This document shows positions 3,001 through 54,144 of a stretch of 64,000 nt of DNA, piece by piece; position 1 is the stretch's first letter; each line of letters opens with the position of its first letter. This DNA comes from Lingula anatina (Eukaryota; Animalia; Brachiopoda), in the NCBI GenBank assembly GCA_051362555.1, contig CM120640.1:69728788-69792787 (forward strand). Reading direction: 5' to 3'. Position numbers and translations under genes: made by a program. Below the pieces are notes generated by a model. That model worked only from the letters and a program-made list of their open reading frames with translations. It did not search any database and was not told where the DNA came from.

Positions 3001-4847
3001 GAAATAATAGGGCATTGTTTTGCGGACCTTTTGATTTACTTGTGAGATTGATCGCAGTAGGGAAAAAACAACTTCAAAAAGATGTCTTTTCAGAATCCAA
3101 ACTGTGCTGTGTAAATCGAGAGCAAATATCCATGGACAAGTGGCTTCAATTTCAAGGCACTATTCTGAGAGCTGGTTATGTTAGAGTAAATTACATGAAA
3201 ACCATTTGTTGAACATTTTTCCCACTGGGTTTAATGGTTAGTGACAACAGGCTGGGGTTGGCCAAGTGCATGCCATTATTTGTGTTTCAGAAGTATTGAA
3301 AGTAGAAGTAAGTTACAAGAGATCAAAGAGCAGGAGTTTGGAGGACAGATCAACTGTACTGGAGCAGTTAATAGTACAGTCACCACACCATGTAGTAGCA
3401 CTTCTTGGGCCTGTGATTTGCACAAATTTCATGTGTAGTTGTCATGCCTAGTTCAGCTTTTCAATCAAAATTACTCGGCCATATACGTTGAAAATATTTG
3501 TGATTAAACAAATATAGGTTAAATAATGATAGCAATAAAAAGAAAAAAAAAGAACAGATTCCCGACTCTCGTTGCTTACAATTGGATACATCCAGGGAAC
3601 ATTTTTCCACTTAATTGCATTTCCACTTAAAATTTACATGTCCAGAAATTAAAGTTTTTTTTTTGTTCTGGAGAACTTGGGTCATTAACGATTGCCATTG
3701 TAATTTAATTAAATGTACAAGTTAAAGCAACAGCTTGGTAAATCAGTGTTCAGACTTGGTAAGTTTGTTTTTGTCATTGAAACTGTTTGTTAAACAGTGG
3801 TATCCAGGGAATGACTCCTGACCTTTTTTGTTACTGTAACTAAAGGAAAACACTTGGTAAAAGCTACTTACCTTATTTGCCCTTAAATGTTTGCCATTAT
3901 AGAAAGCATGACCAGAAAGAAAGAAGAAATGTTGCTTAAATTATGGTGGTATAATTTTTTTAGGAAATATGCTTTGAAAAACTGGAAAATCTGAAAGTGA
4001 TATTCTTGAGAAATATCCGATGGAGCATTAACATGGGCACATCCCGTTAGAGATGAAACATCATGCAATTGTTCATTCCAATGCCTGACGCGTTTGGTAA
4101 AGACATTTTAGCCATACCTTTGTCAAGTTTTGAAAGGATATAAACTAGAAACCTACATATCAGTGGATGGAGTGTACTCTAAAAGAGAACAGAATGTGAC
4201 ACATTTGGTATTAAAAGTTCAGAAAATCACCACCATGGTTCACAGAGGGTTGCCATGGTTCATTGCAAACATGTCGACTCTGTCAAAGGACATTTGTGCT
4301 TGCCCAAAGAAATTTTCTCTCTTTCATTCCTTATATGATTTTAATGTTAAGTTTTAATGGGTTAAATTACACAATGAGCTTACTGGAATTTTGAATGCAA
4401 CTTTTTATTTAACTAAGGTTAGAAATATGACAAATATCCTAAAATTTGGCTCTTTAATCTGCCATGCAGCTAACCTTCTAAGTATACAACCCAAGAGATT
4501 TTATGCAGAATCATGGTGTGACATGGATCATTTGTAGCTCTCTATTTCCCTGAAGGCAGCAAACACCAATGTAAATGCTGGGGCACACGCCTGGTTCTTG
4601 CTGAGGGCCTACATCACATGAATGTTATCCTACATGGCAACAAGGCTTGAAACAAGCTCTGTAGATATACATGTTTATTAGAGATGTGGTGAGATTATTT
4701 ACCATACAAATGGAAACTGACAACACCTGCCTTGATAAAATTTACTATTTGCACAACATTCATATGAAGTATTGGTGAAAAAAAAAAACGTATGGTGTGC
4801 TTCGTGACAACATTTTTATGTTTTTTTATCTCTTTTACTCTTTTCAG

Positions 4848-10800: not shown

Positions 10801-13800
10801 TTTGATGTCTTTACCTTTAGTACAGTTTGTTTATATGTCTGGATTCTGGACTGATGACAGAGTATAAAATCAGCTTTTTGTTATAAATATATATATACAC
10901 CACGTTGTCATATGATTTTTGGTGCATGTTTTCCAGAATTTTCGCCGTGTGATAGTACATTGTTCTGGGCGAAGATTAAATCACTTAAAATTTATCATAG
11001 GCTAGGATCGTCACATGACCCGACTGGAAATTGTCTTAAGAAGTGACACATACAATACATTGTTTGGAATCATTGGTGGCATGCACATTTTGGGACTGTC
11101 AGCAGACATGATTATTTCCAATTTAAATCTGAAATCTGATTTTTTTCTTGGAAGTTTTTTTTTCCCTTACGCAATAATTTCCAGACTGTTGGCTGTATGG
11201 CCACTGATACATTTTTTCCTATTTTTTTCTTACAATCTACAGTCTTTGTCACTGTCTGGCGCTGACAATGCCAAGGCATACAATACTTCTGCTCATGTAT
11301 TGGTATGTGTATAACTGTATGGATATAGGATACTTTATAGTCATGTGCTTGTTTGAAGATTGGAAAATATCATTTCTGGAATTCACATTTGGATATTAAG
11401 AACATGCTTTAAGGTATATAAACAGTTGTGGTTTAACATTATTTTACAAGGAAGAACTTTATTTGCAAGGTCTGGTGAGCAGAGCGTAATTGTTAACTTA
11501 AGAAAAAAAGTTCTCAATACGCTGTCAGATATACAGCATGTGATGTGGAGCGGGGGTCGCGGGGGATTGACCTTGCCAATTACCATCTCAAAGAGATCAA
11601 AGGCAGAACACATTTATCTTTAATATGCCACAAAATTGATGCAGCAGTCCAACCTAAAATAGATCCTCTGTGATCCCCGCTCTTGATAACGCTGTACAGA
11701 ATTCCTGGGGTGCCTTGAACATGCCTGGTAATTGCAGCATTTGAGACAAGGACATGCTCCATAATGTGGACCTGGGTTGGGGGGGGGGGGCTGCGGGGGG
11801 CATTTGCAGTAGTTGTGTAAGAGCACATTTAGAACAGCGGACTAACAGATCTATGGATCAAATATGGCCGACCCACTTGAATGCTTGTTGTGTAATTCCT
11901 GCGGGGCATCCACTCAGCATCAAATGTCGCCATGTTTGATCTGTGGATCTGTTAGCCTGCTGTTCTGAATGTGCTGTAACATGATGTTGCCATCTGCGTC
12001 CCTCATGTGACAAACACATGGAGAGAGGGAGAGATGGAACCCAGGACAAGGACTGAATAGCTAACATGTTATGTTGATAGCTTCCTGATGCTATGTCACA
12101 AGGCGTTTTTTTTTATTCCGGAAATGATAAGTTTTGGTTTCAGCCACAAGTATTATGTTTGGTTGTAAGAAACTGTATTTGCAATATGAATACATTGTTC
12201 TTTATCACTTTCTATTTTTCCTTTACCATGAGAGAGAGAAAAAAAATAGGGAGGTTGAGTTTTCCAATCTTTTCTTTAAAGCACTGTTTGCTCTTATTGA
12301 AATGTGTGTCAAATGGCATGCCTGTTCTAAGATAAGACAGTAGCCATACATCAAATGCAGTATTTTAATCAGTGTTTCATTTCCTCCTATTTTTCAGATG
12401 CGCAGTGCCAACAGTGCAGAGTACGGCTCAGAAGATCTCAATGGCTGCCTCCAAATCTCGCCAATCAAGCCACGTGACTCCCCCATGGGGGATCACCACA
12501 ATGACAGTGGCATTGGTAGGTGGTCGTCGTACGGCTCGCTCCCAGGCACAGCGTCCGGCCACTCAGCAGGTGATCTGAGATGGAGATTTAGATGTGGAAT
12601 CTTTCATTTTGTTTTTATCCACTGTTTTTTTTCCTCTCTGGCACAATTGGCTGACTGAATTTTTCTTGTGGCTTGATTTAGTTATAGTTGTGTCTGAATT
12701 CTTGTAGAATTATTTTGAGTTGAGACTTGCTATCTGCATTTGGAATCTAATGAAGTTATTTCCTCCAAGTTGCTGCAAAGCAGAAAATTGTCATTTCCAG
12801 TGCAGATATTTAGTTTGGATGCTGTGATATTAGATTTGGTTGACTTCTCTCTATCTTCCACCTCCTGAGTGCAGTGACGTGTGCTTCATCACCACTTTGT
12901 ATTAGAATGTCACTAGTCATGATTTCAGTGGCAAGTTTTCCATCCTGAAAGTTTGTCGATTCTGTTTTTTTTTAAGTTAATTCCAGTTCTCTACTTTAGT
13001 TTGGTTTTATGGATGTCTGAAAATCCCTACATAGCATGAATTCAATGATTTACCAAACTATTCTCAGATACTTTTTATACCTATATTTGTAGCCGCATAT
13101 ATTTTGAATCACACTTTTGTATCATCAAATAAAAAGTAGAGCTGTATTTAAAACTCCTGAAAACACTAATTATAAACATTAATTTTTCTTATACTTTGAA
13201 ATAAAGAACAACTGTCAATATGGTAACTGAAAAATTAAGAGCATTTCTATGTCATCATTTAGTGAAGGTAAGTATAAGCACCCATCAAAATTATGCTCTC
13301 GAATCACATAAAATATTTTTATTGATTTGTTTTGTTGTATCCGCGCAGGAACCCTGTATTCCAGCACCCATTCTAGTCGCAGTAACACAGCCAACTACAG
13401 TAACCACCAGTCCCCTGTGAGCATGCACGGCAGTCCCATGATGCCGCACATGAGTGATGATGGGTACGGCTCCGCGCCTCTGTGGCACAAATTTTCATTT
13501 GTAGTTGTCTTAATTTGAAATGCCTTTGGGACATGAGGTGAAATTATGAGGGTTTTTTAAGCACATATCTATTTTATTTGTTAAATTGTTTTCACCTTGT
13601 TTTTTTTTTCTAGCATTCTTATTTTTGAGTTAATTTCCCTTAGCTAGGAACACATATATTCATTTGGTTGGAAATATCAGTGTGATCACATCCATTTGAA
13701 CTCTTGAGTTGATATAATAGTAGGTATAAAAGTTTCTTATGCACTGATATCTTTGGTTTCAGGATGAGTGGCTTCTCCCCCAACCCTCATCACCAGATGA

Positions 13801-15809
13801 GCCCTGGCGCACCCCAACCCATGACGAACATGACACAGCAGCAGAGCATGACAATGGTGGCCCAGCAGAACATGCCCCTGCCCCAGGGGAACATGACCAT
13901 GCAGCCATCACCCCAGCAGAGTATGGGGATGCAGCCCCAGCCACCCCAGGGGAATGGCATGAGCTACTCACCCCCAGACTCTTCACTGAACCCACACCCC
14001 AAGTTACCGTCCATTGCCAGAGTGCCTCCACAACAGATGGCAGCACCGCAGGCTCCTCCTCCACAGTACCCTGGATATCAACAGCAGTATCAACAACAGC
14101 AGCAGTACCAGCAGTTTAACCAGCAGCAGATGCCCATGTCTAATGGTAAGTTATCATTGGAGTGCCAGGTTGATTGCTTCATATGCCCACAACTACAGGC
14201 CTACCAAACTACCAGACACGGCACCGAACGATCCTGAATTCACCAGTAAATCGGACCACACTACCCGTTTTCAAGGTGTGTATCAGTACGCATTTCACAG
14301 TATCAGACGCGACACCGCTCTTGCCTAGTATGCGATGTGATAGTGACAATTCTGAGCCGGGTTGCATTGCATTGCATTGCATCACCACTCAAAATTTGTT
14401 CAGGGTATGATACTGTGTAATGCGTACTGACTCACACCTTGAAAATGGGTAGTTTGGTCTGATCTACCGGTGAATTCAGGATTATTCGGTGCTGAGTCTG
14501 GTAGTTGGGTAGGCCTGAACTACTTTTGTTTAATGTTTTTATTTAAAAGATTAATTTTCAGCAATGTAATAATATTTCTTATCGCACATGTGCATGCAAA
14601 GTAAACAAGCCAATTAGGGAGATGTATAGAGAATAATAAAGCATAAAGAACACAATATTAGACATTTTGAACCTAAAATTTGTAAATTGCCTCTCTCTTC
14701 CTTGTGTGTAGCTTTGATAACTAAACACTGCTTGTAATGACTCGATCTTTTCAGTGGGGAAAAATCAAATTTTCATATATGTAATTGTAGAATCATTAAA
14801 AATGATAGGAATGTTTGAATTTTAAGAATATATGACTTAATAAAATACAAAATCTGTAAAAATCACTATTTTCCCCATGAAAAGATCGACTCGTTACATT
14901 ACTCGATGTATTGAAGTCTGATTGGGTTGTGTTTGCGCTCTGTCCACTGCTTTGTACTGACCGGGAACAGGCCGCGGTCATGCCTGTCCTAATGTCCAGT
15001 GTACGTCTCTGTTGCAGTGAACAGTGGTGGAGGCGGGCAGTACATGCAGGTGCACACCTCCTACCAGAACTCCATGACACAGCAGGACACCGTCATGAAC
15101 CAGCAGGCCAGCATGAACGCCATGAACATGGCTGCCAACAACATGAAGGTCATGCGCCAGCCGAGTCCGCGCAGCATGGTCCCCATCCCAGCTTTCGAAG
15201 ACACTATTGCCAGTTTGACTCTGGAACAGAAATCAAATGGTATGTAGTTCTCTGTAAACTCTCAGACTCATTTCATTTGGCCTAGTGTTTGTGGGTGTTA
15301 AATGGAAACATGTTGTATACACATATGGCAAAATTAAATATTTTTTTAACATGGTGACTGAAAATATGATTTGTTATTGTAGTCATAAGTCATTTTTTTG
15401 TCTTGACTTACAATTAAATAATATAATTGTGATGTACTTTTGGCCTGCAAGCCTGCAATACTGAGTAAATAAACTTTGAATTTTCAAAATATGATAAACT
15501 TGATAATTAACAACTTCATTGGTCTTTGTTACATATCTTATTTTGAGACAGGTACATATCTTCTTCATTTGATATATTTTGTTGTAGTAAAGTTAATAAA
15601 GTAAATATGTAAAAGATGAACGTGGATGGAATAAAGTAATTGTGTAAGAATTAACAGACTTTCTTTTGTTTGCAGGCTATGGTGACTGTAGTCAGGGTGG
15701 TTTTGATGGGATGGGTTACAGTGAAGAATCCAATCAGTTTCTTCAGCTGAATGCTGTGGACAGGTGTAACAGCCAGCTCTCTGCAGTCTTTGCTGATGGG
15801 TCTTCATAA
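4848..15809 (+). CDS. GLIS3: Glis1/3-family Kruppel-like zinc-finger transcription factor, 5'-partial (N-terminus and first fingers lie left of the window)
   Basis: GT-AG exons in continuous frame: 4848-5009 ([54 protein letters not shown]), 9830-9940 ([27 protein letters not shown]), 12398-12569, 13349-13463, 13763-14145 (Q/P/M-rich, PPQY motif), 15018-15239, 15676-15809. The last exon ends [23 protein letters not shown], resembling the vertebrate GLIS3 C-terminus. Finger sequences are Glis1/3-type rather than Gli-type. Confidence 0.93.
7968..8200. repeat. Degenerate inverted repeat, probable MITE relic
   Basis: Perfect 16-bp core AGTGAACAGTCTGTTT / AAACAGACTGTTCACT with weaker flanking complementarity; ends are uncertain. 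Confidence 0.5.
11822..11975. repeat. Imperfect inverted repeat (~50-bp arms), old MITE or RNA hairpin
   Basis: AGCACATTTAGAACAGCGGACTAACAGATC... pairs with ...GATCTGTTAGCCTGCTGTTCTGAATGTGCT. Confidence 0.75.
14196..14517. mobile_element. MITE, hAT-like CAGG termini with 5-bp TSD
   Basis: About 110-bp imperfect TIRs CAGGCCTACC...GGTAGGCCTG, flanked on both sides by AACTA, in a Glis intron. Confidence 0.85.
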
Positions 15810-21300: not shown

Positions 21301-21927
21301 AATGTGTTACCAAATGAAAAGATTTGAAATTTGAATTGAGATTTCTTTTACCAAAATAAATGAATACATGCTAAAAATAGAAGAGAAAAAAATTTGGGAA
21401 CTTAATTATCATGGCACATAAATAATACAATGAGCAATACTACATCTTACCCTTGCACAGCATCAAGTGTGAATGAACAAGCTACTGCAGGAATTCAGCT
21501 TCCTTAATCTCAAATATGATAGAAAATGGCTGTCAAATTATGACAGTTCACTCATGCAAACTACACATGTATTGCACCTAAATTAGTATTATAACCACAG
21601 AATGCATTATTGAAAGAAGAATTCAGTTATTACTACTATGAACCAAAGTGCAGATGGCATTAATATTTCCACTCCTACATAAACATTTAGCTCATCATTA
21701 TTTTTTTTATAATCAGACGACTGATATAAATGGCATTCTTATAGTTTAAGACAACTGGATAAAAAAATTGACAAAAGTGGTGCAATGTAATACAGATGAA
21801 ACGTTCTTATAAATCCTAATGCCTTGCACAAGTAAATATGACTGACTGGACGCTCTGACTAATGCCCATACATTTTATACATGCTGAAGATGGTGTGTGA
21901 CCCCCCCCCAAGGTCTGTCCCCAGGGT

Positions 21928-24900
21928 TCAGTACCCCCTCTGATACTGTGGCTGTGGCTGGTAATTCTGCTGTGGATATGCCTGGAACTGGGCCTGGGGA
22001 CCTCCTGACTTCTGTAACCTGGGCACCCCAGGCCGGAACACCAGCATGTTGAGGACGGGTTTTCTCTGGATGTAGTCCACTGCCTTCTTGTGGGTCACTA
22101 CTGTCATGTCATGGCCATTGACCTGCAATGGAAAATACAAGTTGATTAAAAGACCATTCCCAGAGACTATCGTACTAACTTTGGATCGAACTATCTCTGA
22201 GGGAATTCTAGCTTAACTGCAATGAAGTTGGGCGGCTTCGATGTCTGTCACGCCTGCTGAGGCTGATAGGGGTAATTAACTATCGTTTAGCAGCTTTAGT
22301 GGGCGTCCCAGACATTTAAGCCACTTGGGCTGAGAGCAATTTAGCGAGGTACCCTGTGGAGATGGACTGATCCTGTTAGATCAATCTAGGGATGGGAACC
22401 TAGGGTGTCCCAAACAAGGCAGCAAGGCTGTAAAACGAGCAGGCATTAAACAGAAAAAAAAAATTGAAGCACAAGAAAAGCAGTTTTTCTGGTCAATTTG
22501 ATGCAATATCATATATTAATGCTTTTAAGCAGCATACGGTAATGTGCCATGAATTTCGAACAGTAGAAAATAATTAAATTTGGGAAAAGATCGTTCTGGC
22601 TGAAATTCATGAAATGGAGGTGCTCAGAACTTCCTAAAGTTCGAATTTCATGGAATTCTGTCAATTTTGACCAGAAGTTGTCTGTTCGTCGCTAGGCCTT
22701 CTGTTATCTTCTCCCGACGATCTATTTAGAGTTACCATAATGTATGATGTGTGAGTGTCGGTAATTGCGACCAAAGGTATACACAAACTTTCACCCGATC
22801 ACTGTGTATGGCCCATAGATAGAGCGGTACTGTTGTCTAGGGCCGCAAAACAGCATCGTTATCAGTAGTGTCGTTTTTCAAAAGCGATTCTGGCAGCCAG
22901 AAACTAGTGTCGTTTTTCAAAAACGATCCTGGCGCTCAGAACGGGAGTGGACGGAGGGAGAGACGGCCAACGATTAGCGTCTGCCACGGCCAGATAACCT
23001 TAACTATGGAAGCTTAGTGTTACCGTTGCTCCTTTCCGTGCACTGAAACCGAGACGACAGCCGATCAGTGTCTATGGCGCACGTGCAGGTAGCCTTCATC
23101 TGCGATAAGTGTCTTCCGCGACCAGGTTCGTTGCCTTTACCGTTAAAGTCGGGCGGAGCTTTACGCGCGAATGCGTCCTCATCTCGCCGTTCGCGGGTCG
23201 GTGTCTCCGACACATACGTAGCCTTCCCTGCAGAAGCCGGCCTTGGCACTACGGCCTCTCCTCCGTGCGGGGAGGCCACTACGACCGCAGATCGGTATGT
23301 GCGGCGCACAGGTAGCCTTCGCCACGGCAGCCGAACTGTGTATTACGGTCTCTCTCTGTCGTGCGCTGCGACCAAGATGACCGCTGATTGTTGTCTGCGA
23401 TCAAATATACTAGGTGTGGGGGGGGGGTGCAGGGCCGTTTTTTTTTTTTTTCCGCTCAGGCATTTCAATCTTAACCAGCAGCACCAACTGATTTCCTGGC
23501 GCATAGTTGCGTCAATGTACGCATTTGAAAAGCGTGTACGTTTTGTCATTGAAACCATCTTCAAACAAACGCGAGAGATAGGTAATCTAGAGTAAACCGA
23601 AAAGGCAGTTTTTATATTTGTTCAAGGGACTGGAAGATCGTCAATGGGAGATAGTGAGCGATCTGAGCGCGACAATAAGCCAATTTCCACACTAGTTCAA
23701 GGGACTTCGTTACTATATTCGTCAGCAAGAGATCGTCAGCGATCCGAGCAAGCATAGAAGCTTGGACTTTTTGTCCATGCTAGAAGGCAATTTTCATGTA
23801 GTCAGCAGGATATGGTTTGCTGGTTTGCAACAGGGGCGTAACCAGGCATACGCACGGATACACTGTGCGTATATAATTTTTTGGCCAACCATGACAATAT
23901 TCTCTATAAATCTAGTGTACTTTTCAAGGAATATTATCGAAAATCCCCTTCGATTATAAGTTAATGTCACCTGAATGTACAAATTCTCTGTATGATTTAT
24001 ATATGCACCATTGTTCTGACACCCTTCTCGTTTGCTTTCACAGAACTGAGGTAAACAATACTAGTTACCATCTGAAGTCCGATCTTAATCGTCCATCTAG
24101 CTGGAACTTGCTTTAACTCTTAATTAGAGGGTAAAGTGCCCTTCAGCTCACAGGAAGCTTTTGTCTTGAGTGTATCGAACGCAATATTTATCTCAGATAA
24201 AAATCTACCTGTGTGTTATTTTCAAAGAGCTGCTCCAGCAGACCTGGGGGCACTAGATGATTCTGATCATCGGGCTAAACAAGGAGCCAGAGAAACAAAG
24301 GAAGATTGATTTTTCATGCAATGTTTCAAAGAATTTGGACACGGACTTGATCCAGCTTAACCCTCCAAACTAACGGGGTGGCATGGGCAATTTTTACAAA
24401 ATTTACAAACAATTAAACTTAGATATATTACAATTTTTAGACAGCTTGCGACTTTTTTTATGACGTCTTGGCTTGTCGGGACAGCCGTGGACGTTGTAAG
24501 AAATTTTCTTAGAGTAATTTGACGTACCTAGCTTTTATGATGCGTCACAGATGAATGGTATTACTTTGTAGTGTACGCTGATATTCAGTCACGACGAAAC
24601 TACTTCCTAAAGCTTACAAAACACAATAAAATGTTTCTATGAACTTTAAGATACACATTCCACGCCGTATGCAGCAGTGACAAGAGTGACCTTCATGCGG
24701 TACAAAACACTAAGCAAACTACAGGCCAATTTGTGAAAGGGGACACCTTCCGGACCTTCATACGCACTGCCCACTGACAAAGCTGATTGACAAAAAGCAA
24801 AATTTCAAATTTTCAGCGAGAGATCGTTCGCAATCCGAGAGAGATGAGGCAATTTTCATATTTGTTAAAGAGACTTCGTAAGCCAAAGGGCGAGACGAGA

Positions 24901-27900
24901 ACGCAATTTTCGTATTGTCAGCGTCGCAATCCGAGTGAAATGAGAAAGCTCATACTCGTTCAGTGGCTTTCGTTTGCGGCAGATCGTCAGCCGGAGATCG
25001 TTCTCGATTGTTTTTAACCCTCCATCCCTCCCCTTTAGAATTTATAATTTTTAAAAATATTTTTCATTTCATTTGTACATTTCAAGGGACTTCATTAGCG
25101 AAAGATCGTCAGCGGGAGATCGTGAACGATCTGAGCGAGACAAGAAAGCAATAATGGTAATCTTTATTGCAGCTCTTAATATTACTCTTGTGTTCTGTTA
25201 CTGAAGTCTCTACTGTTAACAATGCTATTGTGCGCCTCAGCAAAACTACCGATCGCCATCTCACACCGAATACTGCGGTAAAGAAACAACAGCCCGACAG
25301 TACAACTCTTAATAGATTCTCCTGTTATCTGAATGAATGGATATGACGATGTTGTTTAGCGTCCTAAACTAACTGTACTGATCGTTATCTTGCACCTTGG
25401 GACGCACACGTAGTACTCAGGTAAAGGTACGCTAGGGCAACATTGCCGACTGTTAGATCTTTATAAGCGCAAGAATAGCCCGGTGGCCGATTTTAAGGTG
25501 TACGAAATTCACGAAATCAAGATCGCGCAAAATTGCTTACTGGCCGAAATTCATGGTCCAGAAAAAACTCCAGACGGCCGATTTTAAGATCGTTCGAAAT
25601 TCAAGAGCCGTTCGAAATTCATGGCACTTTACCGTAATTACCATGATTCTAAATATGTACTACTGTTACTGTTGACTTTCACAAAATAAAACTGGCACAG
25701 GGCTTTGTTATGTTAACTCTTTGTTAAAATAAGTTTATCAGTTTGCACATTATAATTAGTATAGAGTGAAGATATCAGATTGATGTTAACATATGTCTGT
25801 GAGTATCATAAAACATTAGTTCATAACAAAAGAACATCAGCAACCTTACATGTTAACTTATCCAAGAATATCATCAGCTTCAAGTCTACAGTAAAGTGTG
25901 ATATCTAATACGCTGCATTACCTGTAATATTTTGTCGTGAACTTCCAACCCACATTGAGCTGCTGGTCCATTTTCATAGATAAATGTCACGTAAATACCC
26001 TTAAAAATAAAAATTGTTTTCTGTTTATTAACTGAAGGCGTAGCAAATCTGACATCTGATCTTTTATCTCTGGACACCAATTTCAAAACTCCGTGTCAAA
26101 ATATTTTTTTAAAGTTATTCAATTTCTTCATTACATTACTAGTATGTTGCTTGACCCCAATAAAATGACATCTTACAGTGTCAGGGAAACACCAATTCAT
26201 ATTGCTCTTCCAATGCTGTTTAATACGAGCTTAAGCCATTTATCATCTCACACCTTATCTGGATAACCCTGTGGACTCTTGGAATTATCTTGGTCAATTC
26301 CACCACCAATCTTAAAGCCGCATCGAAACCTCTGCTTGCCATCTTGGTCATAGACTGGGTTGCCGTGCTGGTCTCGGTCTGGCTCTTTGTGTAACACGAT
26401 TGGAATCTACAAAATAATTGCTTAATTTTCAATTGGATTTTCAATCTTTCTCCTCTCCCACAATAAAAACCATTTAATGAGTATTACATGGCTAGACTCA
26501 GGTTTTTTCATTTCCATGGATGCTTGCTGTGAATGATTTACCAATTAATTTTGCAGAGTAATTTGACAACTTGAACTTCCTTGAAGAAATAACTAAGTGA
26601 TTGGGACATATGAATACGATCTATGCCTACTGTTAATCCAAATGTAACTTAAAAACTCAATTAATCAAACATTTGGCTTGCAAATCAATTACATAATTAA
26701 CAGGGATCATTATTGTTAATCTTTTCTGTTACTCTTTTCCAGTACAAAAAATATTTCAAAATCTGGTGACAGACTTTATCATGATTTCCCTTAAAACATA
26801 GCATGCTTCAACATCACATTGCAGAAAATGTAGTTTATTACAAAACTCCACAAAAGGTTTAGATTATGATGTGGATGTTTTTGTAACACAAACCAAGATC
26901 TTTTTAGCCCGACTGCAGCTTTAAAACTGCTTCAATAAAGTGGATGACAGCACAAAGAAAGGTTAGTTCTTTGATGTACAGAGCTATCATATAATGGCTC
27001 TTTCATGTTTAATGAGTTGTTCGCAGGTTATTGCTATCTGGGTTTATTTCAAAGGGTTATTGAAAAGTTGTGCATTAAGCATAAATACAGGAATGGCTGT
27101 ATTCAACTTCCCAACAGCATAATAAACCTTTATCTAAAACAGAAATATCACATAAAATCCAATGAAAAAAACCCTGCTATACAGATTGCTGTTTTATTGA
27201 TACCATATTCTCCAGTATAAATCTGAAAGCAATGTTTAAATGTTTAATGGTAGTTGTAAACCTCATATAAAAAGCGACTTATGTATGTGTTATGAAACAT
27301 AAATGATAATTGCTTCATTACAAATTTTTCCAGATTAATTTCATTGATGCGGTTGCTCTCTGTGAAATAGTTCAGACCCCCACCCTTTTCCAAGAGGGAA
27401 ATATGCCTGATTGCTTTTCAACCTCTAGCCAGGGGCCCTGATTTGTAAATTTCAGCTTCACAGTCAGCTTAATAAGAAGCATGTAGAGTGATGTAAGAAA
27501 ATTAGGAATACACATGTATACTAGTAAGCTTTGACCTGTCACATCTAGACTGCTGCTTTGAAAACAGACATATTGTGTTTTTATGACCAAGGTGATTTGA
27601 CTTGTTATCAACATGTTGAAAGTAGAGTTAATATTATGAGCTACAGCCTAATCATATTTATTTATTATATAAACTAAAATAATTCAAAACTAACAATTTT
27701 GGCACACTTTAAGTTTAATAAAAATTGCATGCTTTCATCTACTATGAATTTGTAAGGTAATATGGTAATAAGAAGTAACCAATAAACACACCAAATATGT
27801 ACTAGCAATATAACACCTGATACTTTTCCTTGCACAAATTTTTAATTTCCTTCATCTCTGATGTTTTTTATCTTCGTGTGTCGAGGGTAGTTAAAGTCAT

Positions 27901-38100: not shown

Positions 38101-41100
38101 TAGATTTTTTTATTATTGTATTTGGGTTTCATGTGTCATTTTGCTTACACCTGCTTTCCTCCTGCTCACGAAGTACCACGAAGTACTTTAGACTATGAAA
38201 TTTTGGTAAAGTGTCATTATTAGAAAAGTACATGCTCAGTAAGTTACCTACTAGAGCTGATATGATTGAAATGGTGAGATCACTTAAAATGTGCTACTGC
38301 AGTTCTAATAAAATGTTTAGTCAAATAATAGCAGAACGTGTTCCTCTTAGATTTTATATGAAGGTGCTTTTGTCAGAAATGTTCAAAATAGTTGTATTAC
38401 AGGTTTTGATATATTTTCAGCATAAGTCAGGTATGGGCTAACTTAGAATCAATTAGATTTTGGTGATGATACATTAATTAATTGATTGATTAATAATGAC
38501 GATTGAGCAGCCTTGCTGGAGGTCAGCACTTTCTGAATACCATTCTAGTTTTATAAATGTTTTGAACTGATTTCATCTTTGTCCAGATTCGCCCTATGGA
38601 ATAATGGATGTTACAAGTCCATCAGTCATATACAGGGGACCACAGGTGAATGGATTTAAAAGTCCAGCTTCAGGTATATTTTTATTTGAGAATGCATGTT
38701 TTATTTGGATTTTTGCTGCTGTGTTAGAATAATTTTCAACATGTGTTATGTTTTTGTTAAGTTTCTGAAGTTTCTCTGATTTCTCAGATGTAATTTCATG
38801 TCATTTTCATTCGGTCAACATTCAAGTTTACATCTTAATTGGTAGTTCAAAATTAATCTTTTTCAAAAGAGTTAATTTTCTAAGGAAATGAAATATAGGT
38901 TAGGATTTTTTGGGATCTCTTGAATGTTGTATATAATCTGTTACATACAGTTCATGATTTGGATAAGGCAATTAAGTGGTGATTTTCATGCAGAAAAATA
39001 GCTCTCTGGGTAAATTTGATTGCCTTTTTTTCTCTATTTTAGGTCCAGCTCCACTTCCCAAACAGCCATCAATAGCAGATAAGGTATTTAAGGAGCTTTA
39101 AAAACAAATAGCCATTAGTGATATTGTATCCTTAGTATATGGTCTTATTTGCAAGGCTTCTTATATAGGGTACAAGGGAAAACCTCCAGTGTATTAAGGG
39201 GCCCGCACACGGTGAGCATTTGGCGCGCACGGGGGTATTTTGGTGAGATTTTTGCCTCTCGCGCGGCTGAGCAAAATTTCTCACGTGTTTGATTTTTTTG
39301 GTCTCTTGAGGCAAATGTCTCAGCGTGTGCGGGGTGCAAGTGCCGATTGCTCACGCCATGCCAACAATGCGCATGTGCCGGTAGCCGGAAACAAAGAAAG
39401 ATGGCAGCCCCCAGCGAAGTAAACAAAAATGTACACAGTTATAGTTAGTCTGATTGATTAACGTGGTCACCATTTGCCATTACTTTCAGAAATATGTAAT
39501 GTTTCCTTAATCACATGATCCCACAATTTACGGTACGTCCGATAGGGGCGGGTCGGGAGGCACCTTTGCTGAGGAAAGAGCGCAGCGTTTGCAGGGAGCT
39601 GAGGAGCGTGAGCATTTTGCGCAGTGCAAGTGGCGCGCGCCAAATGCTCACCGTGTGCGGGCCCCTTAAAATGTAAAAAAAAAAAATACATTTTTTGCAA
39701 CTTTTTATAAATATACATTTCATCTTTTTCTTTTAGATAGCAGAATATATCAAAAAGAGAAAAGCAGTCTCGTACTTTTTGAGTGATTTTCCAGAGGCTA
39801 AAAGCCAAAGGCTGTTTGCTGATTGCAAAGTTCAGATTTGGGCAGTGGAAGGTACTTAACATTTTCCCTCAGACTACTGACTTAGATATAAATGTGTAAT
39901 TTTTATTAGATATTGATCAAGTATTTATATTTTAATTGACCAGAAGTCATATATCATAACAGAAATGCAGTATTTGTTAAGATGTGATAAATACATCAAT
40001 TTGAACTGCAAAATACGTCTATCAACATCCAAATACTTGCTAACTTGTTGTGTAGTTCTAATAAGGTTGTATCCCTGGTTGGGACTGAACATATTTTTAT
40101 ATTACTGCTTTTGTAGCATTGTCATATTTGGTCGCATCTTCCTATCATGAAGATACATTTGGAGTTGTGCAGAAGTCCTTGCCTGCTATCTTAACTTCTA
40201 TGCTTAGTTTACAAGAGGTGAGACTTTCCTTTTTCTTAGTTACATTATTTTTCACATTCTTACCCAAGTATATAGAACAACGTAATTAAAGGGAAGTAAA
40301 TAGGTAAACCAACTTTTATTAAGCTGATGGCTACTTAAGTCTACTAAGGACTCATTCCCAGTAAAACTTGTTCTACATAGATTAATATGTGTCTTGTTTC
40401 CAACATACAAGTATAATCACCAACCTTTCTGTATCCCACTCAATGCCAGGAGGAGGGCTGTAAATATTTTAATCTGATTGCATTTAGTTGGATTGATATA
40501 TGTACATGCAGAACAATAGCTTCATTAGGAATGATCCCAAACTGTACAGTTTGTCATGTGTGTGTTGATTGGTTTATGTAAACATTTTGCAATGATTTTG
40601 GTAAATGATTTAACAATGTTATATGTTTTCCCCCAGTCAGTAGAAAAATGCTTCAAGTTGTCAACAGGAGCCAGCCGCAGGGTGCTGAGGGGTCAGAATG
40701 ACCCAGATGGCCTCCGGTTTGCCTTGAAAGCTTCATTGAGGACATCTCTGTACAGGGTGGTCAATAAGTTTAAAGATCATTTAAGGTAAGGGATAATGAG
40801 TAATATTTCTGCACAGATTTGAGTGCATATTCCTAGGTTTGTGTGCATGTATGCACGTCTCAACAAAATCAGTAATTTGTAATTTACATTCCATAACAAT
40901 CACAAGAAAAATTGAGAACGTACAGAAAAAATGAAAATGTACAAGAAAAAGACTACCAGACAGACCACTATTATATAAAGATATCACTAGCAAGACCGTT
41001 CTTGTGATCTTGTGATATCTCATCTTAACTTCTGTGATAGATTAATATGAAGCTCTTACTGCATAAAGATATTCATAATAGTGTCTTATCACCAAAACTT

Positions 41101-46675: not shown

Positions 46676-49600
46676 ATGGCCACACAAGCCTTCACAGTGA
46701 CAAATATGCAGGCATTGGGCAATAATGTCCAGCAGGTGAGAATGCCCAATGTAAGTATGGGAAGGAATTCTGTAAATGTTATATACTAGTTGCAGGTTTG
46801 ATTAGAACCACTTTGACTTACTGCCTTAAAACTTGTGTTGACTTTAAAATTGAAGTGGGAATGTTAAAATGTGGATAAAGTTTAAACTGACTTCCTAGTA
46901 AAAGCGGTGACTAAGTTTTAATTAACTTAATGCCAATTTTCTGAAATAAGAAGATGAGACTTACATAAATTGATAATTCATAAGTCTATGCCTTCTTGTT
47001 ATAGAGCACAAACAACGGGCAGCAAGGACAGCAAAATCAACAGAAACCTCCTGTGCAAACCATTATTCAGCCACATGCTGGACAGCAGTTTATTGTGACA
47101 AGTCAGTATTCTATCTATACTATATCAAAAAATGTTTGATGTCTGTAAAGGAAAAAATTGGCAATAATATCATTTTAGTAAAAGAAAAAAATAATCACTT
47201 TGTTAAAAGAAAAATAAAGCAAGATCAATCACCAGAATGACTATAATTGTGTTACAGTTAAGAATGTTAAACTATTATCTCTGTTTAGCAGTGACTTCAG
47301 AAGGAGCAGAGCAGAACCACAATCCTGAGAGTTTGGCGTTACAGGGCACACAGGCAGTATATCCAGCTCATGTTCAGTACGTAGACAGCACTGATCCTGC
47401 TCTCTACGCTGCTTCCAATGGACAGATGTAGGTTCTAACCCACTAACAAGGCTAGGTGTACCCAGAGTTGATGTGATGACCTTATGATGCTTGCTTTTGT
47501 ATCCCTTTTTTCTCCTCTGGTGGCTTGTGGTGGTTGGGCATGTTGTGTTACTAGTATTTGTAGCAATTATTAATCAGTAACAATCCATAATAATAATATT
47601 TGAAATGCTTTCAATTGTCGCTACTTGTAGATTTTAAAGTGTACCTAGGTATTATCAAAGTAAATAGATCAGAACTACAATTTAATATTTTAAGAAATTC
47701 CCTCTCTTTGTACCTAGGTCCACTTTGAATTTTAGATGTTTTTCCCCTAATTTATTTTAAATGGGTTTGATTAATAACATGCATTATATGAATAATTGTG
47801 GCCTGCCTCTAATTCTATGAAGATAACCTTGCAGATTGAGTTTAAATGGGCAAAATTATACTGAAAAATTTATGGCTGTGTATTATACCAAAAAGAACAC
47901 TGAAAATACAGCTGCAAAGAACATTGAGAATTAATCTGCAAAGTTATCCACTTGTTCACATTCTGAGCACATGAGGCATTATTGTTATCTGCTGTTATGG
48001 TGTTGTCTGTTTGCTTTTCTCTACCTTCTTTAATTTTTATCCCAATCCAGTTCATGTGCTCAAAATGTGGCTGCAACTTTATATAAAAGATACTAACTGT
48101 ATGTTTTTTTACAGACAAACTTATGACTACAGCCAAGCCAATATGTATACTCCTGTTTCTGGAGCATATTACCAGACAGTTTCTGGAGCACAGGTAATTT
48201 TGATATAAGCACTGTCTAATTTTATATATTTTATTGTAAGTTGTATGGGTTTGTCACAGGACAGGTGTTTATTCAGATTCATTTAATATTTTAACAAGCT
48301 GAAGAATCCATATCAGTAGCTGTTCTCATATAATCAGGTATTGTCTAAGGTCAGATCCCAATTGGCCTCTGTCCTAGTATATATCAATGTTGGCAAGTCA
48401 GTGACTGGCTTGAATACACATTTGTCCTGTGATACATATATATAAATGATTTATCAAAGTGTGGAAAATTGAAAATCATTTGTTCTTCAATTTCAATTCA
48501 TTTTGTAGTTGTCTCAAGTTGGAGGTCTACCACCAGGCATGCAAGGACAGTTTATTACACATCAAGGGGGGACTTATTTGGTCCAAGGAGGTGCTATGGA
48601 TGGAGAAGGACATCCCCTCACACACACTACCAGGGCATCCCCAGCAACAGTAAGTACTCCAAACTAAACCACCTATTTGTGTTCAAGTTAACAAACATAT
48701 AATAATTTTACAGATTGTAGATAAAGTAAATAATAACATATGTTATAATTACATGTCTGTTTCTTAATTAACAACTGTGGAACATAAAAATAGTTAAGAA
48801 AAGCAAAGTTTGGGGTTTCTTGTCCCCTAATGTGTCTGAAAATAAAATAAAGAAAAGCTTGTGTTTTAATGAATTTCAAGTATGTGGGAACTAAGTAAGT
48901 TTGCTTCAGACTTGAAAAGAATTTATAGTTTTTATTTTTTCTGTGCAGCAGCAACTGCCTACTCTGTTATTAGCTGGGATTACAAATGTCTAGGATTGAT
49001 TATCAACAATGGTCTTAATCCATGGTTATAAATAAGTTAGGGTCTCATCTGAAAGATTACCTATTTAGATGTTATTGAAAAGAAGCATAACATGGTCCAT
49101 CTTTTCAGCTTCAGCTGAAGGATGCTTTCAGTGGAAATGCAAAGGAGGCCAAAGGGGTAAAAAGATACTTATGAGATTATCTAGCTTTCAATTATTTTCA
49201 GTGTATCTCTGTCTTTTTTTTATCAATTATGCTACTTGCATTTGAGCAAGTCTGTTAAAGGTTGATTCTAGTGAGGCATTTTTTACCATGTACCAGAAGC
49301 ACAAATTTGTTATGGCACTCCAGTCAGGTGGACTATCCTAGATGTAATATAATGAATTTAGCATGATGAATGTTGTACATATGCTTGCTTGTATTGTGTA
49401 TAACTCTCTTAGTTTTTCTTGAGAAGTTTCAAAACAGACCAGCATTGTCAGAATTAGCAAGGTCCCATGCCAGGAACAGTTGCTGTCAATATGGGCACTT
49501 AGATTTTTTAAAGAAATTGGTGGCTTTATTCCTAGCTGAGAGAAAAAGGGTCATTTATGACTGCAGAGGAGCAGAGAGACTATAACAAAATGTTCTGACA

Positions 49601-50334
49601 GCATCTATGATAGATGTAAATATGGGGCTCTTGTTATTGAATTCAGGTGCAGTGGTTAATTGACAATTATGAAACATGTGAAGGAGTAAGCCTTCCCCGT
49701 GCCACCATTTTCAACCTGTACATGCGCCACTGTAGTGAAACCTCCCAGGATCCTGTTAATGCTGCATCTTTTGGGAAGCTTATACGCTCTGTGTTCTTGG
49801 GTTTACGCACCAGGAGACTGGGCACCAGGTATTAGTAATTTGGTCTCTATGTACTGCCTTTTCTCTCTGTCTGACCCTAACTGGTTTGCTTTTGTGTGTC
49901 CTCACTCTAGGTTCAGTGGCTGATTGATAATTATGAAACTGCTGAGGGGGTGAGCCTTCCACGATCTACACTGTATAGTCATTATATGCATCACTGTACA
50001 GAGAGTAAGTTGGACCCCATGAATCCAGCTTCCTTTGGAAAGCTGATTCGCTCAGTGTTTCTAGGTTTGAGAACAAGACGCTTAGGAACCAGGTAAATAC
50101 AAAATAGCAACAGAAATTGAACAATTCAATTGGTGCAATTTTTACAATCAAAAGTTTGCATGGAGTCCAACTTGAAATCAACAAGAAAACATCTACTAAC
50201 ATCATTAGTATTTCTTTTTCTGAAATATTATACAATAATTGTGAATGATTTAATGAAATGTTATAAATAGATTTAAAGAAAATAGTGATCCTTGATTATA
50301 TTAGTAAAAGCTAATAGGATATTTTATTGAAAGA

Positions 50335-50366
<32 letters not shown>

Positions 50367-53300
50367 CTTGTATTTTAGGGGTAATTCAAAGTACCATTAC
50401 TATGGCATCAGAATCAAGCCCACCTCTCCATTGAACCAATTCACAGATGACCAGACTATGGCCATGAGGCAACAACCAGTGAATCAGGGGAAACGGTAAG
50501 CAAGTCTTCTCTCTTCATATGTAACTTAAAGTTACATATAAACTTATAAATAGAGGGTGCATTCACTTTAATACATAAAAACAACTTTTGCTTGTTTCTA
50601 ATATGACTCAAATAAGGTCAGTGTGCCTAGGAATAACCCAAGTTAATCAGTTGATCAGCCATAAAAGAGCTATAAAACTGCACCTTCAAATTTCTGGTTG
50701 TACACTTGAGCTACTTATCTGTCTCTTCCAGTTGTAAAAAGAAGTGATGTTCAGGGAATTAATGTTCCTCACACAATTCCACCATTATTCAATGCCAAAA
50801 TTGGCCAAAACTAATTATTATATATATAGCAAAGGAAAAAGAAGAAAATTTGTGTAAAAATATAAATTTTGATTAATATAAAACAATGCTCTATTGTATT
50901 TTTTAAGCTATGCTGTTTGAAACCATATCGTGGCATTTGGTCAGTTTTTTAATTTCACTTTCAAATTTCAATACATTTTTAATCTTGTCATGATCAGTGG
51001 GGCATAAATAATAATAATATTTTTATGTGGAATGTATGTTTACATATTTACCACATATATGTGTATGTGTTTTTTATCAACAGCTTTAAGTCAGCAACGA
51101 CAGGTATTGATGGTAAAGATATTGATACTTCACGGGATCAGAATTCTCAAGGATCAGATTCCCAACAGCAACAACATCAGCAGTTCCTTGGGGATGCTTC
51201 AGGGGCCATTCCAAACTTTGGAGATGTTCAGGAAGGAAATGTTTTGCCAGAAGGGCTAACAAAGGAACATATTCGTAGTTTTGAAAGACTATATAAAGAG
51301 CATTGTGAGGTAAGTTTTGTTGTGATATACAGTAAATGAACATCTGAAACTGTCATTCTGCTGAGTAAACTGTTTTATTATACCTATTCTTGTTGTTTTG
51401 TCCACATTAGCTCATGTCCGTTTCAAAAATAAAAAATAAATTAAATGAAAGATAAAAAATGATGATAATAATGAGGATACCATTTTTTTTAAATAGGCAA
51501 TGCTTGATGTGGTTGTGAATCTACAGTTTTCACTCTTTGAAGCACTTTGGAAGTCATTTTGGAGAAACCCAACAGATCTCCCCACGTAAGACTTGCTTTG
51601 GATATAATTTATTATAGAATAAAATGTACTCTAGATGAGTAGTTTTGATTATGATTTATATTTACTTAAAATGAAACTTTTTAAACCTAGATTTTTTATC
51701 ATAATGAGATAAATTAAAAAATTATAATGATTTTATTTTAGTGCGGAAAGTGATATTGAGCGAAGGCTCCCCAAAGAGAGGCTTTATTCTCTGTGCAGAT
51801 TTGAGCCAGTTCAAAAGTGGGTCAGGAGATCAGACTATTGCTTTTACCAGGCACTTGTGGAAGTACTTATACCCGATGTTTTAAGGCCCATACCAGGTAA
51901 ACAAAAAACAAGACCAGTATTGCAATTCTGTAAAATGTATCTCTCGATATACATCATAACATTAATATCTCATGAATATATTGATTTCTGTGTTTTGATA
52001 TAACACGTTTTTATTCAGGTTCTTTGACTCAGGCCATCCGTAATTTTGCCAAAAGTTTAGAGGGTTGGCTAAAGAGTTCCATGCAGGGAGTACCTGAGGA
52101 AATGGTTAAAGCAAAGGTATACACCAATTTACACTGTGATTTATCATTTTTTAAAAAATTTAACTTACTATTGGTTTGTTATAAAAACTTGGACATGAAT
52201 CTTCCTTCCCATTTTTATATACCGAAATGCAAGTGTATAGTCTATTGTTAAGAATAAAATGATATACATATGCACTGCAAAGTGTAAATGACTTCAGACT
52301 TAAAGATTATACTGTAACTGGTATAATACCTAGGTTGGAGCAGTCACGGCTTTTGCCCAGACATTGAGGAGATACACTTCATTAAATCACCTGGCCCAGG
52401 CTGCTCGCGCCGTCCTACAGAACACGTCCCAGATAAACCAAATGTTAAGTGACCTTAACAGGGTGGACTTTGCAAACGTACAGGTAGATTTACTTGCCTT
52501 TACCTTGTTATCTAAAGCAATAAAGTGTTGAAAGGGCTTAGAATATCTTAATTATTACTTATTTCATCAATTAAGTTTAAGCAAACCATTGCTATAGTAG
52601 GTTCATGGTAAAATATTTTTTTTAAAGGAGCAAGCTTCCTGGGTGTGCCAATGTGATGATGCAGTAGTGACACAGTTGGAGCAGGATTTCAAGAAAACTT
52701 TGCAGCAGCAGAACACTCTAGAACAGTGGTCTGTGTGGCTGGAAGGGGTAGTCAACAAAGTACTGAAGCCACATGAAGGCACCGAGAATTTCCCAAAGGC
52801 AGCAAGACAGTTCTTATTGAAATGGTCTTTTTACAGGTGAGATTCTTTTTACATATGTGTGTACACTATTGATAAAATCTCAATGCTTAAATGGCTCTTT
52901 TACATGACATGAACCAAATATGATCTATGCCAGTGATACAGATGCTATTTTTGTCTTGTATTTTCATCAGGCATAGTGATATGATAAATACTTGGTACAT
53001 ACAGTAAAAAACATGATGGTAAAAATAGTTAAAGATTTTAGCAACATTTAAGTAAATGATGAAAATCTATGGTAGCTGATTATTTTTACCTTTTTGTTTT
53101 GAATTAAAGTTAATGACAAGCACTCATTTCTGTTTAAGCTCAATGGTTATACGGGATTTGACTCTGAGAAGTGCTGCAAGCTTTGGCTCATTCCATCTCA
53201 TCCGTTTGCTGTATGATGAATACATGTTCTACCTGGTAGAGCACAAAGTGGCTGCTGCTACTGGGGAGTCTCCCATTGCTGTGATGGGAGAGGTGAGTGA

Positions 53301-54144
53301 TGCAGATAATGGTAAAACATTTGTAACGTTGAAACACTAAATGTATACTTTAACTTATTACGTGGCTACACATTTTGTAGCTCGCTGAATGGTCATGAGT
53401 CAGTATCATGCAGTCATTTATTTTAGTGAGTTGACCTTTTAATTGGATCAGTCTTCTCCTTCTTTGATCTCCACTACATGAGATAGGTCCTTCACCAATT
53501 AGTTGTCCATGTGTCTTAATTATTTTCAGTTATCTCAAAAGTTTGTGATCACTTAACAAAGCAGTTATAAACTTTGTGCTTCAGTCTTGGTTAGGTTCTA
53601 CCTGAAGCTTAGATGCTGAGATGATTGACCTCCACCTTCAGTGTCAGCCAGCTTTGGGTTGAACCTTACAAAGAGGCTCAAAGTGTTATCATTCAGTAAA
53701 ATAAATCTATGTTCTTTTACTCTGTGTTAGTTATTGTTGAGAAGCTCCTTTGTCATTTATTTATGAAGATGCTTCATTGAATAATTTTAGTTTATTGATC
53801 TTGGTGGAGCCATCACTCTTGGTACTCTGGAGAACCTGAGTAGCAAAGCAGCCACAACTACCAACACATCCTCGTCATCTACTCTGAAATCCCTGCCTAC
53901 TATCACAGTGACCCCAGCAACCACGGGACTGACCACTACCCCTGCCAAGGGACTGGCCACTACTCCTGCCACAGGGCTGGCCACTACACCTGCCACTGGG
54001 GGCAGCACCAGCACAGCTAATACCACAGTGACAGTACTGACATCAGGGACAGGTGCTTCAGGAACCAAGACCATAGTGGTGGTACCTGTCACTTCAGCTG
54101 GTTCTGGAGATGGACATGCAGCAAAGAAGTTTAAAGTTGGTTAA
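46676..54144 (+). CDS. RFX3: Regulatory factor X (RFX1/2/3-class) winged-helix transcription factor
   Basis: Exons 46676-46750, 47005-47101, 47289/47292-47427, 48115-48193, 48509-48649 (HTTRASPAT), either 49647-49828 or 49911-50092 (DBD), 50379-50495 (GNSKYHYYGIRIKP), 51084-51309, 51497-51585, 51742-51896, 52019-52116, 52334-52483, 52628-52836, 53139-53292 ([33 protein letters not shown], dimerisation domain), 53791-54144. Likely pro-orthologue of vertebrate RFX1/2/3. Confidence 0.95.
49647..49828 (+). CDS. RFX3: Rfx DNA-binding-domain exon, alternative A
   Basis: attcag|GTG...ACC AG|gtatta; 182 nt; VQWLIDNYETCEGVSLPRATIFNLYMRHCSETSQDPVNAASFGKLIRSVFLGLRTRRLGT(R). Confidence 0.9.
49911..50092 (+). 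CDS. RFX3: Rfx DNA-binding-domain exon, alternative B (not shown in the ORF track)
   Basis: ctctag|GTT...ACC AG|gtaaat; 182 nt; VQWLIDNYETAEGVSLPRSTLYSHYMHHCTESKLDPMNPASFGKLIRSVFLGLRTRRLGT(R). Confidence 0.92.
50338..50366. repeat. (TA)n microsatellite next to the acceptor of the exon following the duplicated Rfx exons
   Basis: Uninterrupted TA run ending 12 nt before the exon that starts at 50379. Confidence 0.9.

What the first reader, a model, noticed from the sequence alone, without database searches (positions are those of the whole stretch)
49647..50092. Rfx has two tandem, mutually exclusive exons encoding alternative DNA-binding domains
Seen: two 182-nt exons (phase 0 in, phase 2 out), 82 nt apart, each with intact AG/GT sites and an open frame, each encoding the RFX winged-helix core. 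They differ at 13 of about 61 residues, all between positions 11 and 39 (TCEG..RATIFNLYMRHCSETSQDPVNAA vs TAEG..RSTLYSHYMHHCTESKLDPMNPA). SFGKLIRSVFLGLRTRRLGTR is identical in protein yet recoded: 7 of 9 codons of GLRTRRLGT differ synonymously. That argues for an old duplication under purifying selection on both copies, not an assembly artefact. Including both or neither shifts the frame. Established: in RFX1 the wing reads the major groove and helix 3 the minor groove. Inference: one gene makes two RFX isoforms with the same wing but different helical surfaces (including A/P at the start of helix 3), tuning X-box affinity, cooperativity or cofactor binding. I do not recall a described mutually exclusive DBD switch for RFX genes.
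Basis: partly seen in the sequence, partly recalled or inferred. Interest (0 to 1): 0.92.

Follow-up and report, generated by a model that had tools for sequence, protein, structure and literature searches.

The report
Lingula Rfx twin DNA-binding exons
In the brachiopod Lingula, the Rfx gene, a likely regulator of cilia genes, carries two old tandem copies of its main DNA-binding exon; RNA is spliced into both and both are under selection, and they are likely used one at a time, so the minor copy would make a protein predicted to bind the same DNA sites with altered strength.

Summary
Confirmed. Exons A (49647-49828) and B (49911-50092) are tandem 182-nt copies of the RFX DNA-binding exon in the Lingula anatina RFX1/2/3 gene: 13 of 60 residues differ, synonymous sites are saturated. 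RNA reads join the upstream exon to both (7 to A, 23 to B, three runs); A is minor. A related organism keeps A with 6 silent changes and 1 replacement, so A is under protein-level selection. RefSeq already models A-only (2 of 8) and B-only isoforms. Not shown: A spliced to the next exon in reads; the relative's contig shows A followed by a retained intron, so a truncating role stays open. All differences lie before the wing; A replaces near-invariant Y22 and H24, so altered affinity is likelier than a new motif. No second copy in any other animal examined; no paper found. The design is known (FOXP1 18/18b); new for RFX. The scan had no earlier RFX note but noted twin DNA-binding exons in other factors.

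The parts
46676..54144 (+). Coding span of the RFX1/2/3-type gene (Lingula anatina 'DNA-binding protein RFX2', XP_013412046-55)
   Evidence: RefSeq isoform X2 maps exon by exon to the window; Pfam RFX1_trans_act, RFX_DNA_binding, BCD_RFX
48509..48649 (+). Common upstream exon U, ends in phase 0
   Evidence: Spliced to A and to B in reads
49109..49156 (+). 48-nt frame-keeping cassette exon K in front of the DNA-binding domain
   Evidence: In 5 of 8 RefSeq isoforms, with A or with B; zero depth in 4 of 4 runs laid
49647..49828 (+). Exon A: divergent, minor copy of the DNA-binding exon
   Evidence: Junction 48649>49647 in X2 (6 reads, 3 starts) and X8 (1 read); X1 contig depth 30.9; RefSeq X2 and X6; 6 silent to 1 replacement change against X1
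49829..49910 (+). 82-nt A-B intron; in-frame stop two codons after A's donor; candidate branch points at 49874 and 49880, 46 and 52 nt from A's donor
   Evidence: retained in X1 contig 2, where it has three insertions (10 nt), 4 listed substitutions, and keeps only the 49880 motif
49911..50092 (+). Exon B: canonical, major copy of the DNA-binding exon
   Evidence: Junction 48649>49911 in X2 (12), X5 (2), X8 (9); spliced to the next exon in X1 contig 3; 6 of 8 RefSeq isoforms
50379..50495 (+). Common downstream exon C, completes the wing
49030..49044 (+). Possible 5' arm of a stem with 49873-49887 that would loop out K and A (weak lead)
   Evidence: 1 of 300 shuffles; pair probability 0.03 in a 2-kb fold
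50159..50173 (+). Intron arm complementary (14 of 15) to 50007-50021 inside exon B, enclosing B's donor (weak lead)
   Evidence: z -3.37; 0 of 300 shuffles; pair probability 0.11 in a 2-kb fold

Best explanation
Exons A and B are an old tandem duplicate of the Rfx DNA-binding exon, both spliced to the same upstream exon and likely used one at a time, giving a major canonical isoform (B) and a minor full-length isoform (A, roughly one transcript in five to ten) predicted to bind the same X-box with altered, probably lower, affinity. Shown: duplication, saturation of silent sites, use of both acceptors, protein-level selection on A, early stops in every non-exclusive product. Inferred: that A is spliced on to exon C (database models only); that exclusivity comes from the short donor-to-branch-point distance in the 82-nt intron plus decay of frameshifted or intron-retaining products; that the retained-intron form is the by-product of this jam; and that the effect is on affinity or cooperativity rather than base specificity, because the wing, helix 3 after its first residue and R18 are unchanged while S19A, L21I, Y22F and H24L hit near-invariant positions at the start of helix 2. 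Since the dimerisation domains are shared, A would also act through A/B heterodimers.
For: Junction reads 7 to A and 23 to B over three raw-read runs, no A>B joint listed in 4 of 4 runs. RefSeq: 2 of 8 isoforms carry A joined to exon C, 6 carry B, none both. Against run X1, exon A has 6 silent and 1 replacement change (S33A), P 0.0009, or 0.003 if the one unlisted difference is a replacement; a pure decay exon would not need this. 31 codons outside 11-39 keep the same residues in A and B at saturated silent sites. A's donor and phase are intact. The A-B intron has at most 5 substitutions in 82 against 24 listed silent changes in 118 silent sites of constitutive exons (p 0.004). Among 192 distinct non-Lingula segments Y22 is in 190 and F in 1, H24 in 176 and L in 0, C11 in 0. 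Helix bounds; wing-major-groove and helix-3-minor-groove binding from PMC2533330 and PMC6137059 passages.
Against: No read joining A to exon C was seen: the tool dropped joint rows beside the TA repeat before exon C, and reported only 1 dropped joint. The only contig that follows A (X1, record 2) continues into the intron and B without a break. In X2 depth is zero at 49742-49811 although six reads enter A. Counts are small, 6-25% of each run was read, and human-like reads are removed, so the ratio is rough. The silent-only comparison of A+B with constitutive exons is not significant (12 of 84 vs 24 of 118, p 0.35). The surviving branch point lies about 62 nt from the donor in X1, above the <50 nt criterion. 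The figure marking the nine contact residues could not be seen, so Y22 or S19 being a direct contact is not excluded.
Confidence: 0.68

Rival explanations
1. Exon A is mainly an unproductive or truncating switch: splicing into A jams the 82-nt intron, the intron stays, a stop follows two codons after the donor, and the transcript is held or decayed (or gives a short protein lacking the last wing strand and the dimerisation domains), lowering Rfx output.
For: X1 contig U-A-intron-B at depth 30.9 with no break at A's donor; low sense-strand intronic depth upstream of A in X2 and X5; no A>C read seen. Early stop shown.
Against: 6 silent to 1 replacement change in A, including silent changes in wing codons 54 and 55; RefSeq X2 and X6 join A to C; contigs drop rare branches, so the contig cannot show absence of A>C; the retained form fits a partly spliced intermediate.
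Confidence: 0.2
2. A is a true specificity switch like FOXP1-ES: it reads a different motif or half-site spacing and drives a separate target set in one stage or tissue.
For: Four near-invariant helix-2 positions and the first residue of helix 3 differ; precedent in FOXP1. Compatible with the splicing part of the best explanation.
Against: Wing and helix 3 after position 39 are identical; A's residue at 39 is the one in RFX1 itself; A was minor in all four runs, none showing a switch.
Confidence: 0.08
3. A is a decaying leftover of a duplication, spliced only by noise; or the pair is an assembly or haplotype artefact.
For: A is minor and departs from the family at conserved positions; no A-like copy outside Lingula and run X1.
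Against: Saturated silent sites with 31 unchanged flanking residues; purifying selection against X1; A-intron-B contiguous in an independent organism.
Confidence: 0.04

Closest known systems
FOXP1 exons 18/18b (FOXP1-ES; Gabut et al. 2011, as reviewed in PMC11701043, passages read)
   Same: Mutually exclusive exons that exchange part of a winged-helix DNA-binding domain while the rest of the protein is shared
   Different: FOXP1's exon changes residues that shift the motif and is stage-regulated; here the base-reading wing is unchanged, regulation and binding are untested, each exon is not a multiple of three, and the gene family is RFX
RefSeq automatic models of Lingula anatina RFX2: X2 (XP_013412047.1) and X6 (XP_013412053.1) vs X1, X3-X5, X7, X8
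   Same: The very same exons and isoforms
   Different: Unremarked automatic models, with no comment on domain swap, selection, abundance or the retained-intron form
Tandem-duplicated mutually exclusive exon clusters in general (PMC5740500, PMC9013439; passages)
   Same: Homologous equal-length exons, frameshift on joint inclusion, short donor-to-branch-point distance, possible competing RNA pairing
   Different: Neither text mentions RFX (0 hits in both main texts; 0 in 10 supplementary files of PMC5740500); the distance here is borderline and the pairing unproven
Human RFX1-8 isoforms (PMC5838959, 12 of 26 passages)
   Same: Same family and domain order as RFX1-3
   Different: Described human variation is in start sites, N-termini and loss of the DNA-binding domain; no passage seen describes a swapped domain

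Membership tests
RFX1/2/3 transcription factors | RFX DNA-binding domain, activation region and B/C/dimerisation domains | tested here: met
   Both isoforms pass PF02257 (A 111.2, B 114.9 bits), PF04589 and PF25340
RFX1/2/3 transcription factors | Nine DNA-contact residues conserved | tested here: inconclusive
   The residues are marked only in figures that are not held. The first (Arg, Lys in RFX5) aligns to R18, same in A and B; positions 40-60 and exon C are shared. That the other eight lie there is recalled, not checked
Mutually exclusive tandem exon pair | Adjacent homologous exons of equal length and phase with intact splice sites | tested here: met
Mutually exclusive tandem exon pair | Each exon spliced to the common upstream exon | tested here: met
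   A in 2 of 3 raw-read runs plus the X1 contig; B in 4 of 4 runs
Mutually exclusive tandem exon pair | Each exon spliced to the common downstream exon | tested here: inconclusive
   B>C in X1 contig 3; A>C only in RefSeq models; X1 shows retention after A
Mutually exclusive tandem exon pair | No spliced A-B joining | tested here: inconclusive
   No 49828>49911 joint listed in 4 of 4 runs, but A is rare and rows need 3 reads
Mutually exclusive tandem exon pair | Enforcement by frameshift | tested here: met
   Both-in and neither-in products stop early; decay itself is inferred
Mutually exclusive tandem exon pair | Enforcement by steric clash (<50 nt donor to branch point) or competing RNA pairing | tested here: inconclusive
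   46 or 52 nt here, about 62 in X1; stems beat shuffles but not real-sequence or wide-context controls
FOXP1-ES-type specificity switch | Isoforms prefer different DNA motifs | not testable with these tools
   Needs binding assays; the unchanged wing argues against
FOXP1-ES-type specificity switch | Stage- or tissue-regulated exon choice | tested here: inconclusive
   A minor in 4 of 4 runs of unknown tissue

The most novel reading that the evidence does not exclude
Exon A is a survivor from before the spiralian radiation: it keeps V37 and A39, the state of the named arthropod, echinoderm and vertebrate proteins, while B has M37 and P39 like every named mollusc, annelid, nemertean, bryozoan and flatworm hit. 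Lingula would then retain both the old and the new RFX domain in one gene and switch between them to tune the ciliary programme, with the old copy lost or overlooked in other spiralians.
Probability: 0.15. Interest if true: 0.72.

Novelty: new member of a known kind. Interest (0 to 1): 0.46.

Why it matters
The RFX domain is among the most invariant DNA-binding domains in animals. A gene that keeps a second, selected version with changes at near-invariant helix-2 positions is a natural experiment on what those positions do, and would be a way to tune RFX output by splicing in an animal that feeds and moves water with cilia. It adds RFX to the short list of factors with swappable DNA-binding exons. 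It does not introduce a new mechanism, and so far it is confined to Lingula and one close relative.

Tried and rejected
No whole genome is held for this window. No indexed RNA holder listed; raw-read runs were laid instead. A deeper look at the A>C junction in further runs was not obtained, so that junction stays open. Searches with exon A found no A-like protein outside Lingula: best 83% among 120 listed of 3891, 80% among 120 of 178, 83% among close matches in 150 of 1047; clustering hides isoforms, so this is weak. 18 of 18 metagenome loci hold a single domain exon; some are short. Among 329 proteins in 164 groups with the same downstream 60 residues (38 groups with more than one protein) only the Lingula group has two domains; cluster lists show at most 15 members. 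Docking-site idea (49036-49051 pairing with either exon's upstream stretch): 0 of 60 shuffles, but 17 plus-strand and 19 minus-strand loci of the window score as well and its probability is 0 in a 2-kb fold: rejected as evidence. Both stems were picked before testing; 8 of 10 pairs tested were unremarkable. Tree of 35 segments, 60 columns: 1 of 32 branches well supported; A and B grouped in 0% of 200 bootstrap trees, but well-supported branches do not force them apart: age unresolved. The fold of the A isoform left the wing unmodelled (pLDDT <50 at 232-299); used for helix bounds only. Three literature searches for residue-level RFX contacts gave nothing usable.

Full report
Observation. The two exons are as described: 182 nt each, AG/GT ends, 82 nt apart, 121 of 182 letters alike, 13 of 60 residues different, all between positions 11 and 39. 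By Nei-Gojobori counts silent sites are saturated (pS 0.99) and pN is 0.14; 29 of 47 same-residue codons are recoded. Either exon alone keeps the frame; both, neither, or A with the intron retained stop early.

Identity. Exon B is 100% identical to Lingula anatina RFX2 isoform X3, and isoform X2 maps exon by exon onto 46676-54144. It has the activation, DNA-binding and B/C/dimerisation domains of RFX1-3. The RefSeq cluster has 8 isoforms: X2 and X6 carry A joined to the next exon, six carry B, none both. What support NCBI had for that join is not shown; that such models usually rest on aligned RNA is my recollection.

RNA. Four runs were laid on 48080-51320. The upstream exon is joined to A in X2 (6 reads, 3 starts) and X8 (1), and to B in X2 (12), X5 (2) and X8 (9); six more X2 loose ends point to B. 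X1, contigs of a differently labelled organism 90-95% alike, gives depth 30.9 for the A path and 235.4 for the B path. So A is used and minor, about 10-25%, a rough figure since only 6-25% of each raw run was read and human-like reads are removed. No A>B joint is listed. Joints into exon C were not listed for any run; the tool says it dropped one joint row beside the repeat there. B>C is visible in X1 contig 3. A>C was not seen. The X1 contig that carries A continues through the intron into the first 29-30 letters of B, and X2 has no depth over the second half of A. These results count against a clean either-or and keep the truncating rival alive, although contigs drop rare branches.

Selection. 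Against X1, exon A has 7 listed differences, 6 silent and 1 replacement (S33A); P 0.0009 under neutrality, 0.003 if the one unlisted difference in that contig is a replacement in A. B has 3 listed, all silent, of 5. Over all letters A+B differ at up to 13 of 364 against 55 of 545 in four constitutive exons (p 0.0002), but the silent-only comparison is not significant (p 0.35); the A-B intron has at most 5 substitutions in 82 plus three insertions. A therefore behaves as translated, selected sequence.

What differs. In the model of the A isoform helix 2 spans exon positions 18-32 and helix 3 starts at 39: eight differences are in helix 2, three in the turn, one at the start of helix 3, one after helix 1. 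Among 192 distinct segments from 503 of 514 non-Lingula proteins, A's C11 and L24 occur in 0, F22 in 1, I21 in 2, A19 in 5, while B has the majority residue at all five. RFX1 reads the major groove with its wing and the minor groove with helix 3 (passages of PMC2533330 and PMC6137059); that part is shared. The nine contact residues are shown only in figures I could not see. I infer altered affinity or cooperativity, not a new motif.

Age. V37/A39 (A's state) is in 145 of 192 segments, M37/P39 (B's state) in 39; the named carriers of the latter are molluscs, annelids, nemerteans, a bryozoan and flatworms, of the former arthropods, echinoderms and vertebrates. That hints at an ancient copy. Against it, A and B share M26, found in 2 of 39 M37/P39 segments, and small hydroxyl residues at 30 and 32, and no second copy turned up in 18 loci or 38 multi-protein groups. 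The tree is unresolved. A duplication within the brachiopod line with two reversions is the safer reading.

How exclusivity is likely kept. Frameshift and early stops are shown; decay is inferred. Candidate branch points lie 46 and 52 nt from A's donor, near the <50 criterion of PMC5740500; in X1 only the second survives, about 62 nt away. Poor splicing of this intron would explain both the lack of A>B joints and the retained form. Two stems around B beat shuffles (0 and 1 of 300) and appear in a fold of 49020-50185, but fall to 0.11 and 0.03 in a 2-kb fold, and a docking-site model failed a real-sequence control. They are leads only.

Prior knowledge. FOXP1 18/18b is the closest described case (review passages). 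Searches for an RFX case (listings and abstract starts) showed none. In papers opened by term search, RFX has 0 hits in PMC5740500 (main text and 10 supplementary files, which may not hold every data table), PMC9013439 and PMC4595640; PMC5838959 (12 of 26 passages) and 10.1101/2024.03.12.584681 (4 passages; supplements closed) describe other RFX isoforms; PMC6984359 (12 of 16 passages) places Lingula rfx3 in a ciliary gene cluster without mention of isoforms in those passages. Subscription journals are not covered. The scan's own notes hold no RFX case.

Verdict. A real, expressed, selected exon pair; most likely mutually exclusive isoforms (0.68), with an unproductive role for A the main rival (0.2). 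A known design, new for RFX, already implicit in automatic models. Interest 0.46.

Noticed in passing
window 49109-49156: Cassette exon just before the DNA-binding domain. Unrelated short inserts sit at the same place in vertebrate, spider, chiton, abalone, clam and annelid RFX proteins, so the position of the cassette may be conserved while its sequence is not.
   Followed up: partly
P0355 vs P0359 (Lineus longissimus RefSeq isoforms X1, X2): Isoforms from one contig differ at a single wing residue (Y in 4 isoforms, H in 2), which suggests a separate alternative short exon inside the RFX wing of a nemertean. No DNA was available to check.
   Followed up: partly
window 4779-15285, 40089-40789, 46676-54144: GLIS-type zinc-finger exons (Pfam C2H2), a probable ndc1 piece (my recollection; no Pfam hit on the fragment) and Rfx lie together, matching the glis1/3-ndc1-rfx3 ciliary cluster described for Lingula in PMC6984359.
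   Followed up: partly
window 21816-26483, minus strand: Short exons that look like a small PDZ protein gene (Tax1BP3-like by recollection; the fragment tested had no Pfam hit), between GLIS and ndc1.
   Followed up: no
window 49170-49605: Low read depth (0.9-2.9) in the intron just upstream of exon A in X2, X5 and X8, while the earlier part of the same intron has none: slow splicing at A's acceptor or an unannotated start or extension.
   Followed up: no
window 50657-50949: Short intronic stretch that collects partly fitting reads with many different loose ends in three runs: probably a dispersed repeat.
   Followed up: no
P0416, P0418, P0435, P0441: Unnamed proteins of about 1000 residues with 4-5 divergent RFX-like domains each (about 30% identity), an unusual multi-domain layout.
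   Followed up: no
window 53791-54144: Last coding exon is a Thr-rich tail with a short repeated unit; it differs from the RefSeq protein at one residue.
   Followed up: no
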